Origin: Mytilus edulis
Lineage: Eukaryota
DNA: 64,000 nucleotides
Direction of reading: 5' to 3'
Assembly: GCF_963676685.1 (NCBI RefSeq)
Contig: NC_092352.1
Location: 34,224,001-34,288,000 of the forward strand
Below, piece by piece: positions 21,001-30,000 of this stretch. Made by a program: the position numbers. Each line of letters starts with the position of its first letter. The first letter of the stretch is position 1.

Positions 21001-24000
21001 AATAATGCTTATTTGGGCCCTTTTTTGGCCCCTAATTCCTAAACTGTTGAAACCAAAACTCCCAAAATCAATCCCAACCGTTCTTTTGTGGTCATAAACC
21101 TTGTGTCAAAATTTCATAGATTTCTATTAACTTAAACTAAAGTTATAGTGCGAAAACCAAGAAAATGCTTATTTGGGCCCTTTTTGGCCCCTAATTCCTA
21201 AACTGTTGGGACCAAAACTCCCAAAATCAATACCAACCTTCCTTTTGTAGTCATAAACCTTGTGTTAAAATTTCATAGATTTCCATTCACTTTTATTAAA
21301 GTTAGAGTGCGAAAACTAAAAGTATTCGGACGACGACGACGACGACGCCAACGTGATAGCAATATACGAAGAAAAATTTTTCAAATTTTGCGGTCGTATA
21401 AAAAGTTTAAGAACCAAGTCTCTGGTTTGACTCAGCTGAGGATTAAACCCCTGACTTCCATGGCTACTCTTAATGAGCTATCTTAAGATCACAGAATTAG
21501 TTTCAATACATGAAAACCAATTTAAATGGAAGTGTGTGGATACATGTACTAACATACAATATGGACATGATGGAAAAGACATGTTGCATTTTTATGTACC
21601 TGTCCTACATCAGGAGCCTGTTGTTCAGTGATTGTTATTTATTGGTATGGTTCATAAGAGTTTTGTGGTTGTTTTTTTTTTTATAGATTTGACCATTGGT
21701 TTTCCTGTTTGAATTCTTCTACACCAGTCATTTTAGGGCCCTTTATAGCTTGCTGTTTGGGGTGAGCCAAGTCTCTGTGTTGAAGGCCGTACTTTGACCT
21801 ATAATTGAAAACTTTTAATACATTGTCACTTGGATAGAGAGTTGTCTCATTGGCACTCATACCACATTTTATTCTTATGTTAAACTAACATTTATCAAGG
21901 TTTTAATCAAGTACTGACCTTTTTGTCATCATCATGTTCTATGGCAGGTAGTAGGTGGAACAAAGACAAGACAGCACCAGGATGTACAATAATTTGATCT
22001 GCACTGACATGTGATGCCTCTGGTATACTTCCTGTACTGGCCCGCTTCTGTTTGGGTGAGGACTGGGGAGAACCACTACTATCTCTATTATAAATCATTG
22101 TAAACCTCTTTAATGATGGGGAATCTGTCTTAGCTTGGCTAGATGTTGGTCTAAAATGTAGATAAAATTGAGAATGGAAATGGTGAATGTGTCAAAGAGA
22201 CAACAACTTGTTATCTATGATCTCAAACAAAGATATTTTAACTTTTGAAAGATATAATGAAATTATTTTTCTGATATTCCTATACACTTTTAAATCAGAC
22301 TGTTTAACCAATAATTATGAATTTTCAAGGTTAAACACTGCTCTTCTATTTTGGCATATTTAGCTGCAGTTTAAGGTATCAAGTCACACAGACTATCTAT
22401 AATTATTAGCAAACTAAAAACACTTACTTATCAAAGATATCCTGAGCCATGTTGTACAAGTACTTTAACATTACACAAGCAGATAACAGTGTCATGGGAA
22501 TGCCATTGTAATCCCTGTAAAAGAAAAGATTTCAGATAGGCAGAGCCTTAATTTAATTTCAAATTTCATTGTTTTTTATTTGAGCTGTGAAAATGCACTG
22601 AGCCATTGAGTGTATAAATTATTCAAATTTTAAAGTAAATTTGGATTTTATTAGATAAATACTTACCATCATAAATTCTGAGTGTAACCCCAATTGCGTC
22701 ATAGGTCAGATGGAAAATCCCAACTAAAAATAAACGTACTCTCACTGGTCCGGACATATACCCCTGTTTGCCCATATTCTTCCATTCAATTTCCTCAAGA
22801 CAGAAACATAAGGAAAGGGGATGAAGGGGAGGTGGGTGGGACCTATAATTTATGATGGTAAGTATTTATCTAATAAAATCCAAATTTACTTTAAAATTTG
22901 AATATTTTATAGCTATAAATACGTTACCATCATAAATTCTGAGTAACAGAATCTAACGTAAAGCTGAATCCCCTGTAACAGAAGAAACAGGAGGAAAGTT
23001 CAATCTTTGTGCTGAAACTATAGGTCCAAGAGAGTATAAACTTTCGGCAAAAGTAGCCATAGATTGGAGGTAGTGAGATAAAAAAGAGTTCTCATTTCTC
23101 CAGAAACCTGCAGACAGTACCTCTTCTAGAGATGCACTGTTAAACAGAGCCCAGGATGTAGAGATACCCCTAACATCATGAGCTTTAACATTAAAACTAT
23201 TTAAAAGTTCTGCCTTAGAAGAACCATAAGCTAAAGATATGCATTTGCATATCCAAGTAGAAATAGTTTTAACAGAAAGATCTGAGATTCCTTTTTTAAT
23301 AGGAATAAAGAGTCTTGAGTTAGAAACAGAACGTAAACTACACGTTCTTTCCAGATAAATAGATAGGATTCTTACTGGACATAAAAGTACAGAAATAGAA
23401 TCGCTAGGGAGTGCAGGAATCACAACTGGTTCTGCACCCTTATCTGGAATCTGATTCTTTGCCAAAAAAGCAGGATCCGTTAAAAGAGTAACAGAAGATT
23501 TATCCCTGTTAAATCGAAGGCAAGCATCAGAAATAGAGAAGGCATGGATTTCACTCCTTCTCCGTCCAGAAGCCAAAGCTAAAAGAAAACAGCATTTATA
23601 GGAAAGAAACCTTAAATCTATTGTTTCTGCTGGTTCAAAAGGAGGAAGTTTTAAAAAGGATAAAACTAGTCCAAGGTCCCACTTAGGAACTAAAGTTTTT
23701 TGTCTTGGTCTTTCAAGACTAAAACTACGAACCAAAAGAGAAATATGCTCATTGATTCCAAAATCTGGGCCACCAGAAATATGAATAGTTCTTGAGATAG
23801 CTGATCTATATCCCTTAATAGTAGAGGGACATAATCCTTTGGATTCAAAAAGAAAAACTAGAAAGTCTGCTAATTGTTGTACAGTGACTTGGAAAGGATC
23901 AATTTCCCGCTCACTACACCAATCTGAGAAGATTGACCATTTTGCATCATAGACAATGCTAGTGGAGTCTCTGACAGACTTTGTGAGATGCTTGGTTGCT

Positions 24001-27000: not shown

Positions 27001-30000
27001 GGCTCAGGGGCCGTCTTCGATACCTTGGGAGAAGAAGAACTTTCAACATCCTCATCAGTGAGGAAAGCCCTTTCATGACTCCCAGGGGAAACAGAAAGCT
27101 CGTCATCCTCCCTCTCATCACATTCTACAGACTTAGCTGGAGAAGGTTGATGAGAAGAAACTCTATTTTCCAGTAGAGTCATACGACTGGATAGAGTACT
27201 AAATTCAGCCTTGAAAGACTCACCAAAGTCTAAAAGTAACTTCTGTAAACCATCCAAAGGTGATGCATGATCAGAAACCCGAGTACCATGAGAAGAACTA
27301 GAAGCTTGAGAGTCAGGTACGGTGGTAGAAGGAGCTACTGCAGAAGTCAAAGATACTGCTACGGGTAGAGCAGGAGCTAAAGGTGGTGCAGTAGCTACCC
27401 CAGAAGGGGGACCATAGAAATTGTCCCTATAAGGCCAAAAACCAGGTTGGTTTGGCATAAACCCACCATAAGGGTAAGACTGTGGCCAAGGTGGCTGAGA
27501 CCATGAGGGTAAAGGTTGTGTGCCCGTGTTGGGAAGCATATACCCACAATAGGATAATGGGGGTCTAGAACCTGGCAAGTTCAAGCCCATAGCTGTACCT
27601 GGGACAGAACTAATAGTACCCGCTGAATTAACAGACCTAGATAAAGTATGAGTCACCGAAGTTGACGTAGGTACCCCCCCAAAATGCATGGCCGAACCTT
27701 GTGAAAGGGTCGGATAGGTAGCAATACCAGACACCGTTGTCGAAACTCCGGTCAATGTACTGGTAGTTTGGGGGGGACTTAAAGGTAGTGACCCATCTAA
27801 GAGATAGTCCGAACCAGGAATACTTACATACGGACTATTCAAATTAAAGTCCATAATAAATTTTACTTTAGTCAAAAACACAAATAATTTGTTTAGAAAT
27901 TTAAACAAAACAAGGGAATATATTTCCAATAAAATACACAATATATATGAAAAGCAATTAAGCTATTCAAAAAACTAAACACTTCTCTGTTGAATCTGTA
28001 AAACTTGATGTGCACGTGTGACCGATGTCGCAGATGGAAATTGAATGGAAGAATATGGGCAAACAGGGGTATATGTCCGGACCAGTGAGAGTACGTTTAT
28101 TTTTAGTTGGGATTTTCCATCTGACCTATGACGCAATTGGGGTTACACTCAGAATTTATGATGGTAACGTATTTATAGCTATAAAATTTATAAAGTTGCC
28201 ATGATAATGTCTGTATACAAGAATGTTTGTACCATTTTATCAGGAAAAGTTGTTTGATTGGTGGCAAAGTTAACAGGTACAAAAAATAATAATGTATTAA
28301 ATGTATCTAAAATCTTGTAAGTGAATCAAATTACTGATCAAGTATAAAAGTAAAATATAGTTGGTCTTTGGTGGAGAGTTATCTCATTTGCAATCATACA
28401 ACTACTTCCCATTTCTATAATTAGGTACCTTATTAAATATGAATGGGTTGTGGGTGTGAAAAAGATGCATCCCAACCCTCCATTTTTTTTCTTTCAGGAA
28501 CAGCCAATAAAATTAAAACTGTAGGAAATCTTTAATCCATAACCCACAACGCTTGATTATGTGTGCAACATTGATGTGATATAACCCCTAACATGATTCT
28601 AAAATACCCCTAATCATAAGATACGGACTTAATAATTAAATACTTACTTAGTTTCTTTAGTATTTACAAATACATCTTCAAACAGTAGCTTTTGTTCTTC
28701 TGCTTCCGTCACTTCACCAGATGGTTGTATATCTATTGTGGAGGAGAAACAACCTAGTAATCTTACTGCTTCTGTCAGACTATCATATCTTACCTGTTAT
28801 AAAATAAAATGTAAAAATAATGTATAATACATTTTATGATTTCAATTATGTCAAATCAAACTAAAAAATTTAGAACACCAAAATTGACAAAATGTTTGTG
28901 TCATACCAGCCCTAGTGGTCATCTTGATTAAATTGCCACAGACTGAAAAATGTTAAGACAATAGGGTATAATATATTATGTAAGTTTGACAATATAGATG
29001 ACAACTTCGACAATGCAAGTCAACAAAGTGTAAGCTCACATAGTTAAGCAGTTGTATAAAGCTGATGTCCAGAATCATTATTGTTGTATTTGTCACACAG
29101 TTAGAGTACTGAAAAAACTGTCTTCAGCTTACTTAATACATACCTCAGTCTCAAAGAATTTGGCATTAGCAGGTTCATATCTCATGGCTACAGTTATAGT
29201 ACTGAACACTGTCTTTAACATACTTAATACATCTACTCTTCTTACTGAAACATTCAATAATCCAATCATATAAGACAAGGAAATAAACATTATAGTTTAT
29301 CTTAGTTTATACTTAGTAAGTGTAAATCCTCATGAATTTAATAACCACACCAAACGTTTATGTATCGTACTCAGAAAATAAAATTTGAATAAATATCCAC
29401 TTTTACAATATATATATAAAAGAACAAGAATGTGTCCCCAGTACACGGATGCCCCATCCGCACTATCATTTTCTATGTTCAGTGGACCGTGAAAATGGGG
29501 TTAAATCTCTAATTTGGAATTAAAATTAGAAAGATCATATCATACAGAACATATATACTAAGTTTCAAGTTGATTGGAATTCAACTTCATCAAAAACTAC
29601 CTCGACCAAAAACTTTAACCTGACATGGGACAGACGGACGAACGGACGAACGAACGAACAGACGGAAGCACAGACCAGAAAACATAATGCCCATAAATGG
29701 GGCATAAAAAGGGAAACCTTAACTTTAACTGAGATTTACCTTGATCCCAGGGTACTTTAGGTGGATCACATAAACAACCTTCCATAGATACTAAGACAGA
29801 CATGACATACACAAAGCCTCCTACTCTACGGAATACTGTTCTTGATCTGTGGCTTTCTCGCAATACATTCAGCAGTGCCTAAAACATAATGTTTTTGGTG
29901 AAACAATTACAATAGAATTACTGTAAAAATTATAATTTTGAGATATCTCAGATTTGTAAAAAAAAAATATAGTTCAGTGTTTCAGTTTAAGAAATTATAA

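What the first reader, a model, noticed from the sequence alone, without database searches (positions are those of the whole stretch)
22616..28188. Intact, apparently very recent DIRS insertion inside a conserved autophagy gene
Seen: the ITR cores are identical over 132 bp, the ICR halves match the termini, all three ORFs are uninterrupted, and YLDD, RNase H acidic residues and YR R-HxxR-W-Y are present. Inference: the element may be active and the insertion polymorphic or hemizygous.
Basis: partly seen in the sequence, partly recalled or inferred. Interest (0 to 1): 0.65.

Follow-up and report, generated by a model that had tools for sequence, protein, structure and literature searches.

The report
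Intact DIRS retrotransposon in mussel WDFY3 intron
A complete, young-looking copy of a tyrosine-recombinase (DIRS1-like) retrotransposon sits inside a short intron of the mussel autophagy gene WDFY3/Alfy, leaving the exons untouched; it is an ordinary member of a known, multi-copy mussel family.

Summary
At about 22617-28187, on the minus strand, lies a 5.57-kb DIRS1-like retrotransposon. It has 132-nt perfect inverted terminal repeats. Its internal complementary region matches the left end over 41 nt and the right end over 58 nt without a mismatch. It has three open frames: ORF1, RT/RNase H/methyltransferase-like pol, and tyrosine recombinase. All catalytic motifs are present.

The host is a Mytilus mussel and the gene is WDFY3/Alfy. 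The insertion is intronic and in the gene's own orientation. It lies 460 nt after a splice donor and 102 nt before the next acceptor, and it turns a roughly 562-nt intron into 6133 nt. No exon is hit.

Recency is supported. There are no differences in 231 paired repeat positions. Only 4 of 1177 codons carry a residue found in no other copy. Gene models 95-99.5% identical occur on many M. edulis and M. galloprovincialis contigs.

Activity and polymorphism or hemizygosity stayed untestable, because no mussel genome or read collection was available.

The 2-kb pol/YR double-coding overlap recurs in 22 of 23 related loci.

Verdict: a new member of a known kind, of modest interest.

The parts
22617..28187 (-). 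Whole DIRS1-like element, 5568-5571 bp. The right end is uncertain between 22617 and 22620.
   Evidence: Bounds come from the exact ICR/terminus complementarity and from reading the ends. GC is 0.41 against 0.32 for the rest of the window.
28036..28187 (-). Left (5') terminus: outer 20 nt (28168-28187), which pair only with the left ICR, plus the conserved ITR core 28036-28167. The element starts with ATT.
25989..27854 (-). ORF1, 621 aa from the first ATG. It is gag-like by position only: a long low-confidence N-terminal part, helical regions, and a basic C-terminal tail.
   Evidence: Open frame. 230 representative clusters match at E<=1e-3, including full-length relatives of about 600 aa. No Pfam or PDB match. 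Structure model of low confidence, pLDDT 51.
23870..26257 (-). ORF2 (pol), a 795-aa open frame in the +1 frame relative to ORF1, overlapping it by 269 nt. ATGs at 26179 and 26161.
   Evidence: Ty3 RT/RNase H chain 4ol8 at E 6.5e-16 over residues 176-596.
25163..25645 (-). Reverse transcriptase domain (ORF2 residues 205-365), with D252 and YLDD at 316-319.
   Evidence: Pfam RVT_1, E 1.1e-18
24473..24826 (-). RNase H domain (ORF2 residues about 478-595), with D483, E515, D540 and D591.
   Evidence: Weak Pfam RT_RNaseH and RVT_3 matches. Alignment to Ty3 RNase H. Residue positions.
23873..24469 (-). Methyltransferase-like C-terminal domain of pol (ORF2 residues 597-795).
   Evidence: AlphaFold model with pLDDT 88.5 and pTM 0.87. 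Best PDB fold matches are the cap-specific adenosine N6-methyltransferases 6irw and 6iry (E about 1e-4, TM 0.5), followed by KsgA/Dim1 and M.TaqI. Atlas lead to a cluster in which 11% of members carry PF05869 Dam. No Pfam match even at E 10.
22953..25880 (-). ORF3, a 975-codon open frame in the -1 frame relative to pol and overlapping it by about 2.0 kb. First ATG at 25103; ATGs nearer the recombinase part at 24188 and 24146.
22953..24188 (-). Tyrosine recombinase part of ORF3: a core-binding (SAM-like) domain and a catalytic domain with R210, K244, H337, R340, W363 and Y373.
   Evidence: Alignment A1. Its profile hits Cre recombinase at E 1.3e-4 in both domains. 14 of 27 family members match PF00589.
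22847..22944 (-). Internal complementary region: left ICR 22904-22944 and right ICR 22847-22904. It lies between the ORF3 stop and the right ITR.
   Evidence: sequence read
22620..22794 (-). Right (3') terminus: conserved ITR core 22663-22794 plus an outer 43 nt (22620-22662). The outer part is 23 nt longer than the left outer part, consistent with a right extension. It carries AATAAA at 22652 and is followed by ATT.
28648..28793 (-). Host WDFY3 exon upstream of the element (146 nt, with an AG acceptor and a GT donor).
   Evidence: tblastn with P0121 and P0122; splice sites read
22515..28647 (-). Host intron that contains the element: 6133 nt, of which 460 nt + 102 nt are not element.
22428..22514 (-). 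Host WDFY3 exon downstream of the element (87 nt). Its acceptor lies 102 nt beyond the element's 3' end.
   Evidence: tblastn; splice sites read
1645..45305 (-). The part of the host gene WDFY3/Alfy that lies in the window. Exon matches are collinear with residues 2-1989 of a 1990-aa Lymnaea protein.

Best explanation
This is a structurally complete copy of a DIRS1-like tyrosine-recombinase retrotransposon. Its family is multi-copy and nearly uniform in mussels of the Mytilus edulis complex. The copy inserted recently, in the sense orientation, into a short intron of WDFY3/Alfy.

Shown by the sequence:
- The full set of parts that a DIRS1-like element needs: left terminus, ORF1, RT/RNase H/methyltransferase-like pol, an overlapping tyrosine-recombinase ORF, a two-part ICR, and a right terminus with an extension.
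- Every catalytic residue is in place.
- All repeat pairings are perfect.

Inferred from work on Dictyostelium DIRS-1:
- The ITR cores are restored from one another and the outer ends are restored on the ICR.
- The joined ends form a junction that the recombinase exchanges with a short matching target sequence, without a target-site duplication.

For the host, the copy enlarges a roughly 562-nt intron eleven-fold. It places a sense-strand AATAAA and the element's own terminal sequences 102 nt upstream of a splice acceptor. The coding exons and their phase are unchanged, so the default expectation is a tolerated intronic insertion, probably still segregating.
For: Anatomy:
- ITR core 132/132, left ICR 41/41, right ICR 58/58.
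- Three open frames.
- RT: Pfam RVT_1 at 1.1e-18. RT plus RNase H match the Ty3 chain 4ol8 at 6.5e-16. YLDD and the DEDD residues are present.
- Recombinase: the A1 profile hits Cre at 1.3e-4 in both domains, 14 of 27 relatives match PF00589, and R-K-HxxR-W-Y is conserved.
- Methyltransferase-like fold: model pLDDT 88.5, with N6-adenine methyltransferases as the top PDB matches.
- The same layout (ITR, 38-nt left ICR, 58-nt right ICR) is seen in the related locus L009.

Family and recency:
- 16 of the 120 listed ORF2 hits give tblastn stretches of at least 85% identity on the element. All 16 are Mytilus edulis or M. galloprovincialis gene models from many contigs.
- 24 of 384 retrieved proteins have stretches at least 90% identical; the best is 99.5% over 962 aa.
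- 4 of 1177 well-covered codons carry a residue seen in no other copy.

Host context: WDFY3 names, collinear exon map, splice sites.

Model of replication: passages of PMC7192593 and PMC3266345.
Against: - No DNA of other Mytilus copies or of the orthologous empty site could be examined. The copy number at DNA level, the exact ends and the age relative to speciation therefore rest on protein gene models and on 231 paired positions only.
- Zero differences in 231 pairs excludes only pairwise divergence above about 1.3% at the 95% level (my arithmetic: 3.0/231). An age of the order of the species complex is not excluded.
- The exact ORFs are absent from the protein collection (0 of 7 look-ups). 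No identical sister copy is documented.
- The right end does not fit the simple 'same trinucleotide at both ends' rule without one extra base.
- A TTTATA hexamer sits one base outside each end and is unexplained.
- ORF1 has no recognisable fold or family.
- Nothing here shows transcription or movement.
Confidence: 0.8

Rival explanations
1. An old, fixed insertion shared by Mytilus species that merely looks young because too few sites were compared.
For: 231 paired positions bound pairwise divergence only to below about 1.3% (my arithmetic). Near-identical gene models occur in both M. edulis and M. galloprovincialis, so the family pre-dates or crosses that split. One of those models could be this very locus in another assembly, which cannot be told without context.
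Against: About 5.2 kb of open frames carry no stop or frameshift. Only 4 of 1177 codons are private to this copy. The sense orientation 102 nt from an acceptor in a short intron is a position where, from general knowledge of transposable elements, insertions are expected to be selected against over time.
Confidence: 0.15
2. An assembly artefact: a repeat copy placed into the intron by misassembly of a multi-copy family.
For: The family is multi-copy and nearly identical among copies, which is the situation in which assemblers err. No reads could be inspected.
Against: There are no N runs. Both junctions run directly into unique intron sequence. The element is complete, with matched ends and ICR. 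The flanking exons keep order and phase.
Confidence: 0.04
3. A structurally intact but silent copy: complete on paper, yet no longer a source of new copies, because it is silenced by the host or carries a disabling missense change.
For: DIRS-1 in Dictyostelium is held down by RNA interference and moves only in mutants (PMC7192593, abstract passage). 4 residues are private to this copy. Nothing here measures expression.
Against: All catalytic residues and all cis-elements are intact. The family's uniformity across many contigs points to recent activity of copies like this one.
Confidence: 0.4
4. A domesticated (exapted) element that now contributes an exon or isoform to WDFY3.
For: The element lies in the same orientation as the gene and carries AATAAA near its 3' end. 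Precedent: mammalian LAP2alpha and ZNF451 isoforms derive from ORF1 of a DIRS1-like element (PMC4495291, abstract and passages).
Against: The copy keeps every part needed only for transposition, is near-identical to many dispersed copies, and orthologous proteins align straight across the intron. Domestication normally leaves one gene fragment under host-type constraint, not a whole element.
Confidence: 0.02

Closest known systems
DIRS1-like retrotransposons of animals as annotated by Piednoel et al. 2011 (PMC3266345), for example LgDIRS2 of the limpet Lottia gigantea
   Same: Size of about 5-6 kb. ORF1, an RT/RNase H/MT pol and a YR ORF. ITRs with a conserved core (141 nt in LgDIRS2, 132 nt here), a short divergent outer part and a right extension. 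Two adjacent ICRs of about 40-46 and 58-88 nt (41 and 58 nt here). ATT at the start. A motif shared by both ITRs and both ICRs at the core boundary. The table and text were read as passages.
   Different: That survey found long ORF overlap in none of its five mollusc elements. Here the YR frame is open across about 2.0 kb of pol. The right end needs one extra base to fit the trinucleotide rule. The host is a mussel, which that survey did not sample.
DIRS-1 of Dictyostelium discoideum
   Same: Founding member with ITRs and an ICR exactly complementary to both outer ends (33 + 55 nt there, 41 + 58 nt here). The ICR was shown to be essential for retrotransposition. Pol and YR overlap (PMC7192593 passages; PMC3266345 passages).
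   Different: Distant host. DIRS-1 clusters in centromeres and inserts into its own copies, whereas this copy is alone in a gene intron. ITR cores are 304 nt there and 132 nt here. Only DIRS-1 has experimental evidence.
Ngaro, VIPER and PAT-like YR retrotransposons
   Same: They encode RT/RNase H plus a tyrosine recombinase.
   Different: Ngaro and VIPER lack the MT domain and usually lack ORF overlaps. PAT and Ngaro have split direct repeats, not ITRs plus an ICR (PMC3266345 passage). The element here has ITRs, an ICR and an MT-like domain, so it is not one of these.
LAP2alpha (TMPO) and ZNF451-L2a: DIRS1-like ORF1 co-opted inside host genes
   Same: A DIRS1-like element inside a host gene in the sense orientation, with a polyadenylation signal (PMC4495291). 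One Atlas neighbour cluster of ORF1 carries PF11560 LAP2alpha in 21% of its members (score 0.88, a lead only).
   Different: No Pfam LAP2alpha match for ORF1 or for 14 relatives. There is no sign of exonisation. The whole element is intact here.

Membership tests
DIRS1-like superfamily (order DIRS) | RT and RNase H of the Ty3/Gypsy-related type in one pol ORF | tested here: met
   Pfam RVT_1 at 1.1e-18. Best PDB sequence match is Ty3 RT/RNase H 4ol8 at 6.5e-16 over ORF2 residues 176-596. YLDD and the four RNase H acidic residues are present.
DIRS1-like superfamily (order DIRS) | A tyrosine recombinase in place of a DDE integrase | tested here: met
   The A1 profile hits Cre recombinase at E 1.3e-4 in the core-binding and catalytic parts. 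14 of 27 relatives match PF00589 and 13 of 27 match PF02899. R210, K244, H337, R340, W363 and Y373 are conserved. The window protein alone scores only a sub-threshold SAM-like match and E 1.6 to Cre. No integrase or protease family turned up in the three ORFs.
DIRS1-like superfamily (order DIRS) | A methyltransferase-like domain after RNase H (absent from Ngaro and VIPER) | tested here: met
   Met at the level of fold only. Model pLDDT 88.5. The top six PDB matches are cap-specific adenosine N6-methyltransferases, E 1.1e-4 to 3.5e-4 and TM about 0.5, followed by KsgA/Dim1 and M.TaqI. There is no Pfam match. Cofactor binding and activity were not assessed.
DIRS1-like superfamily (order DIRS) | Inverted terminal repeats, not direct LTRs or split direct repeats | tested here: met
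   132-nt arms, 100% complementary. No long direct terminal repeat was found in 21500-29500.
DIRS1-like superfamily (order DIRS) | Two adjacent internal complementary regions near the 3' end, complementary to the outer ends of the left and right termini | tested here: met
   41 nt and 58 nt exact, abutting at 22904.
DIRS1-like superfamily (order DIRS) | A right extension: the right terminus is longer than the left and pairs only with the right ICR | tested here: met
   The outer right part is 43 nt (22620-22662) and the outer left part is 20 nt (28168-28187).
DIRS1-like superfamily (order DIRS) | No target-site duplication, and the same trinucleotide (most often ATT) at start and end | tested here: inconclusive
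   The element starts with ATT, and ATT follows the right end after one extra base. TTTATA lies one base outside each end. Without an empty site the ends cannot be fixed more closely than about 3 nt.
DIRS1-like superfamily (order DIRS) | Overlap of the YR ORF with pol (present in about half of the annotated elements) | tested here: met
   The YR frame has 1 stop in 794 codons across the pol span, against 65 in the other sense frame. About 36 stops are expected in 669 codons, P about 6e-17. The same double-open arrangement is seen in 22 of 23 related loci.
WDFY3/Alfy (host gene) | N-terminal Alfy-type armadillo-like repeats and collinearity with WDFY3 orthologues | tested here: met
   Two exon pieces hit PF23295 collinearly, at 8e-4 and 9e-4. 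These are below the family cut-off, as expected for single exons. The best named hits of one exon are WDFY3 of a cuttlefish and other animals. Exon-by-exon tblastn is collinear over residues 2-1989 of P0122.
WDFY3/Alfy (host gene) | C-terminal PH-BEACH, WD40 and FYVE domains | not tested
   That part of the gene lies beyond the low-coordinate end of the window.

The most novel reading that the evidence does not exclude
The insertion is a segregating (hemizygous) allele that changes WDFY3 output. A sense-oriented, transcriptionally competent element with its own AATAAA, 102 nt upstream of a splice acceptor in what was a 562-nt intron, would cause premature termination or chimeric WDFY3-element transcripts in carriers. 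That would be a natural structural variant of a core selective-autophagy gene in mussels, and a present-day snapshot of the first step of the route by which DIRS1-like ORF1 became LAP2alpha in mammals.
Probability: 0.12. Interest if true: 0.55.

Novelty: new member of a known kind. Interest (0 to 1): 0.3.

Why it matters
Taken alone, this is one more copy of a known class of retrotransposon in a repeat-rich, highly heterozygous genome.

It has three modest values.
- It is a clean, fully annotated reference copy of a Mytilus DIRS1-like family that appears recently active in the M. edulis complex.
- It shows that the roughly 2-kb pol/recombinase double-coding overlap also exists in a mollusc element and recurs in relatives down to 34% pol identity. 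This extends a published survey that saw the overlap in none of its five mollusc elements.
- Its position, sense-oriented and close to a splice acceptor of WDFY3, makes it a convenient marker locus. With existing population and transcript data one could ask whether young intronic insertions in mussels are hemizygous and whether they disturb host transcripts.

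Tried and rejected
I sent stop-free ORF pieces instead.
- Pfam found nothing for ORF1 or for the MT-like part, even at E 10. None of 15 ORF1-family members matched a relevant family; one matched 7tm_1, taken as spurious or a chimeric gene model.
- The ORF1 profile against PDB sequences gave nothing below E 0.04.
- The ORF1 structure model is of low confidence (pLDDT 51, pTM 0.27), and its fold search gave 0 matches at E<=0.001. The LAP2alpha lead from the Atlas therefore stays unconfirmed.
- The YR protein alone against PDB sequences gave only E 1.6 to Cre. A family profile was needed.
- Exact-sequence look-up of seven ORF variants found 0 of 7.
- No other fragment of the element lies elsewhere in the window: 0 tblastn matches outside 22600-28200 for 384 proteins.
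- Rfam gave 0 matches and tRNA search 0 genes in the window.
- Pfam on 102 ORF pieces upstream of the gene gave 0 hits.
- Literature: 0 papers hold both WDFY3 and DIRS. 17 papers hold DIRS, Mytilus and retrotransposon. I opened passages of two of them, and those passages do not describe this family. That does not show the family is undescribed.
- I considered and rejected a disrupted exon, a target-site duplication as proof of another mechanism, and domestication.

Full report
**What is there.** The window has no N and a GC content of about 0.32. Between roughly 22.6 and 28.2 kb the GC content rises to 0.41. Three long open frames lie there on the minus strand: 25989-27941 (first ATG at 27854), 23870-26257 and 22953-25880.

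The region is bounded by a perfect 132-nt inverted repeat, 22663-22794 against 28036-28167. Between the stop of the last frame and the right repeat lies an internal complementary region. Positions 22904-22944 are exactly complementary to the left end, 28187-28147 (41 nt). Positions 22847-22904 are exactly complementary to the right end, 22677-22620 (58 nt). The lower identities that one search reports for these pairs (91-92%) come from extension into the flanks.

The element therefore runs from 28187 to 22617-22620 on the minus strand, 5568-5571 bp.

**The proteins.** ORF2 carries Pfam RVT_1 (E 1.1e-18). It aligns over residues 176-596 with the Ty3 RT/RNase H structure 4ol8 (E 6.5e-16). YLDD lies at residues 316-319. 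The RNase H acidic residues D483, E515, D540 and D591 are in the aligned positions.

The last 199 residues of ORF2 have no Pfam match. Modelled with a 35-sequence alignment, they give a confident fold (pLDDT 88.5, pTM 0.87). Its best PDB matches are N6-adenine methyltransferases: cap-specific adenosine methyltransferase at E about 1e-4 and TM 0.5, then KsgA/Dim1 and M.TaqI. An Atlas neighbour cluster carries PF05869 Dam in 11% of its members, which is a lead only.

The C-terminal 411 residues of ORF3 are a tyrosine recombinase. The single sequence is weak against Cre (E 1.6). A 27-sequence family profile hits Cre at E 1.3e-4 in both the core-binding and the catalytic parts. 14 of the 27 members match PF00589. 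R210, K244, H337, R340, W363 and Y373 are invariant or nearly so.

ORF1 (621 aa) belongs to a real family: 230 representative clusters at E<=1e-3, including full-length relatives of about 600 aa. It has no Pfam or PDB relative, and its model is poor (pLDDT 51; no fold match). It is 'gag' by position only. The LAP2alpha lead is unconfirmed.

**Overlapping frames.** ORF2 is in the +1 frame relative to ORF1 and overlaps it by 269 nt. ORF3 is in the -1 frame relative to ORF2.

Across the pol span the ORF3 frame has 1 stop in 794 codons. The other sense frame has 65, and the antisense frames have 40-64. From codon composition about 36 stops would be expected in the 669 overlapped codons (P about 6e-17).

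Predicted recombinase proteins of relatives reach upstream into this overlapped part. 54 of 120 extend beyond ORF3 residue 565 and 12 of 120 beyond residue 400, in a search limited to proteins of at most 720 aa.

In DNA of 23 related loci (34-67% pol identity), 22 have two sense frames open together for at least 900 nt. In the 18 loci where the pol match is not cut by a contig end, the overlap is about 1.9-2.1 kb in 17 and 1.4 kb in one (L022). That compares with about 2.0 kb in the window element.

A published survey saw long overlaps in half of 28 annotated DIRS1-like elements, but in none of its five mollusc elements (PMC3266345, passage).

**Whose genome and which gene.** The best ORF2 hits are Mytilus edulis and M. 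galloprovincialis gene models. The window is mussel DNA, not human.

On the same minus strand, exon-like pieces hit the Alfy-type armadillo repeat family PF23295 collinearly, and one piece hits Laminin_G_3. One exon-bearing piece searched alone returns WDFY3 of a cuttlefish (68% identity) and WDFY3 of many other animals.

Exon-by-exon tblastn with that protein and with a Lymnaea protein maps collinear exons from 45305 down to 1645. I searched the splice model exon by exon only. The joined coding sequence was neither built nor searched, so the full-length identity and the species of the host gene were not checked that way.

The element lies between the exon 28793-28648 and the exon 22514-22428. 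Both have AG and GT sites, and their phases fit: two bases at the end of the first exon and one base at the start of the second. The orthologues align from one exon straight into the next.

The intron is 6133 nt, of which 460 nt + 102 nt are not element. Neighbouring introns measure about 300-500 nt. Gene and element have the same orientation. The only two sense-strand AATAAA motifs in the element lie at 28101 and at 22652, about 33-36 nt before its 3' end.

**How young.** In the DIRS-1 model the transcript lacks most of both terminal repeats. The cores are restored from one another and the outer ends from the ICR. The ICR is experimentally essential (PMC7192593, abstract and passages). All three pairings are therefore reset at each cycle, and here they show 0 differences in 231 positions. 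By my arithmetic this bounds pairwise divergence to below about 1.3% at the 95% level.

Independently, 24 of 384 retrieved proteins carry stretches at least 90% identical to the element's frames. The best are 99.5% over 962 aa and 98.9% over 806 aa. In one search the contig lengths listed for these gene models differ: 11 for M. edulis and 4 for M. galloprovincialis. Two M. edulis assemblies may be mixed in those counts, so some loci may be counted twice.

Among 1177 codons covered by at least four such copies, the window's residue is absent from all of them at 4. No exact copy of any ORF is in the protein collection (0 of 7). No other piece of the family lies elsewhere in the window.

**What could not be settled.** I could not test whether the insertion is polymorphic or hemizygous, whether it is transcribed, or whether it disturbs WDFY3.

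Hemizygosity is plausible a priori: 36.78% of one M. galloprovincialis assembly was reported at hemizygous coverage (PMC7653742, passage).

The ends fit the published rule only loosely. The element starts with ATT, but the right end needs one extra base before ATT. A TTTATA hexamer lies one base outside each end. Without an empty site this stays unexplained.

**Comparison and verdict.** Every defining feature of the DIRS1-like superfamily that could be tested is met, and the sizes of the parts fall within the published ranges. A distant relative, L009, shows the same ITR/38-nt/58-nt layout.

This is a new member of a known kind. It is well preserved and probably young, in an interesting but non-disruptive place.

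Papers: I saw passages (find mode) of PMC3266345, PMC7192593, PMC4495291, PMC7653742, PMC10294476 and PMC6238403, and search listings only for the rest. No supplements were seen.

Noticed in passing
L001-L023; for example L009:149-7098: 23 short contigs (1.2-7.2 kb) filed under bacterial species genomes encode DIRS1-like pol relatives with 34-67% identity. The MAGs are titled SUP05 cluster, Sedimenticola sp., Breoghania sp., Brevinema sp. and others. L009 has the full ITR/ICR layout, and several contigs end in inverted repeats. These are most likely animal-host retrotransposons binned into MAGs.
   Followed up: partly
window 23873-25880 (-); L001-L022: Pol and the recombinase frame are both open over about 2.0 kb. 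The same arrangement holds in 22 of 23 related loci. The overlapped N-terminal part of ORF3 is 21.5% serine, and its function is unknown.
   Followed up: partly
window about 19100-21400 and about 30600-32600; partial copy about 58100-58630: A composite repeat of about 2.3 kb, with internal tandem arrays of 35, 135 and 161 nt, occurs twice in direct orientation in WDFY3 introns. The two copies lie on either side of the intron that holds the DIRS element, and a third, partial copy lies upstream of the gene. It was not classified.
   Followed up: no
window 2273-3730; 34488-35058; 35378-35618: Tandem arrays inside WDFY3 introns: a 166-nt satellite of 8.8 copies (GC-richer than its surroundings), a 42-nt array of 13.9 copies, and a 16/32-nt array.
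   Followed up: no
window 1091-1390, 4154-4453, 12186-12485, 13779-14078, 29423-29722, 35909-36208: A dispersed repeat of about 300 nt, in 7 copies at 62-87% identity, scattered through the introns. It is probably a SINE- or MITE-like element. No tRNA or Rfam match was found.
   Followed up: no
window 30172-30284 and 45334-45446: A 113-nt inverted repeat, 98% complementary, with arms 15 kb apart. One arm is next to a WDFY3 exon and the other lies just upstream of the first mapped exon. It is probably two copies of a small repeat in opposite orientation.
   Followed up: no
window 22613-22619 and 28188-28194: TTTATA lies one base outside each end of the element. DIRS elements are not expected to make target-site duplications. 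This could be chance in AT-rich intron, a target preference, or slightly misplaced ends.
   Followed up: partly
window 45350-64000: Upstream of the first mapped WDFY3 exon, 0 of 102 open stretches of at least 48 aa match Pfam at E<=1e-3. No second gene was recognised there.
   Followed up: partly
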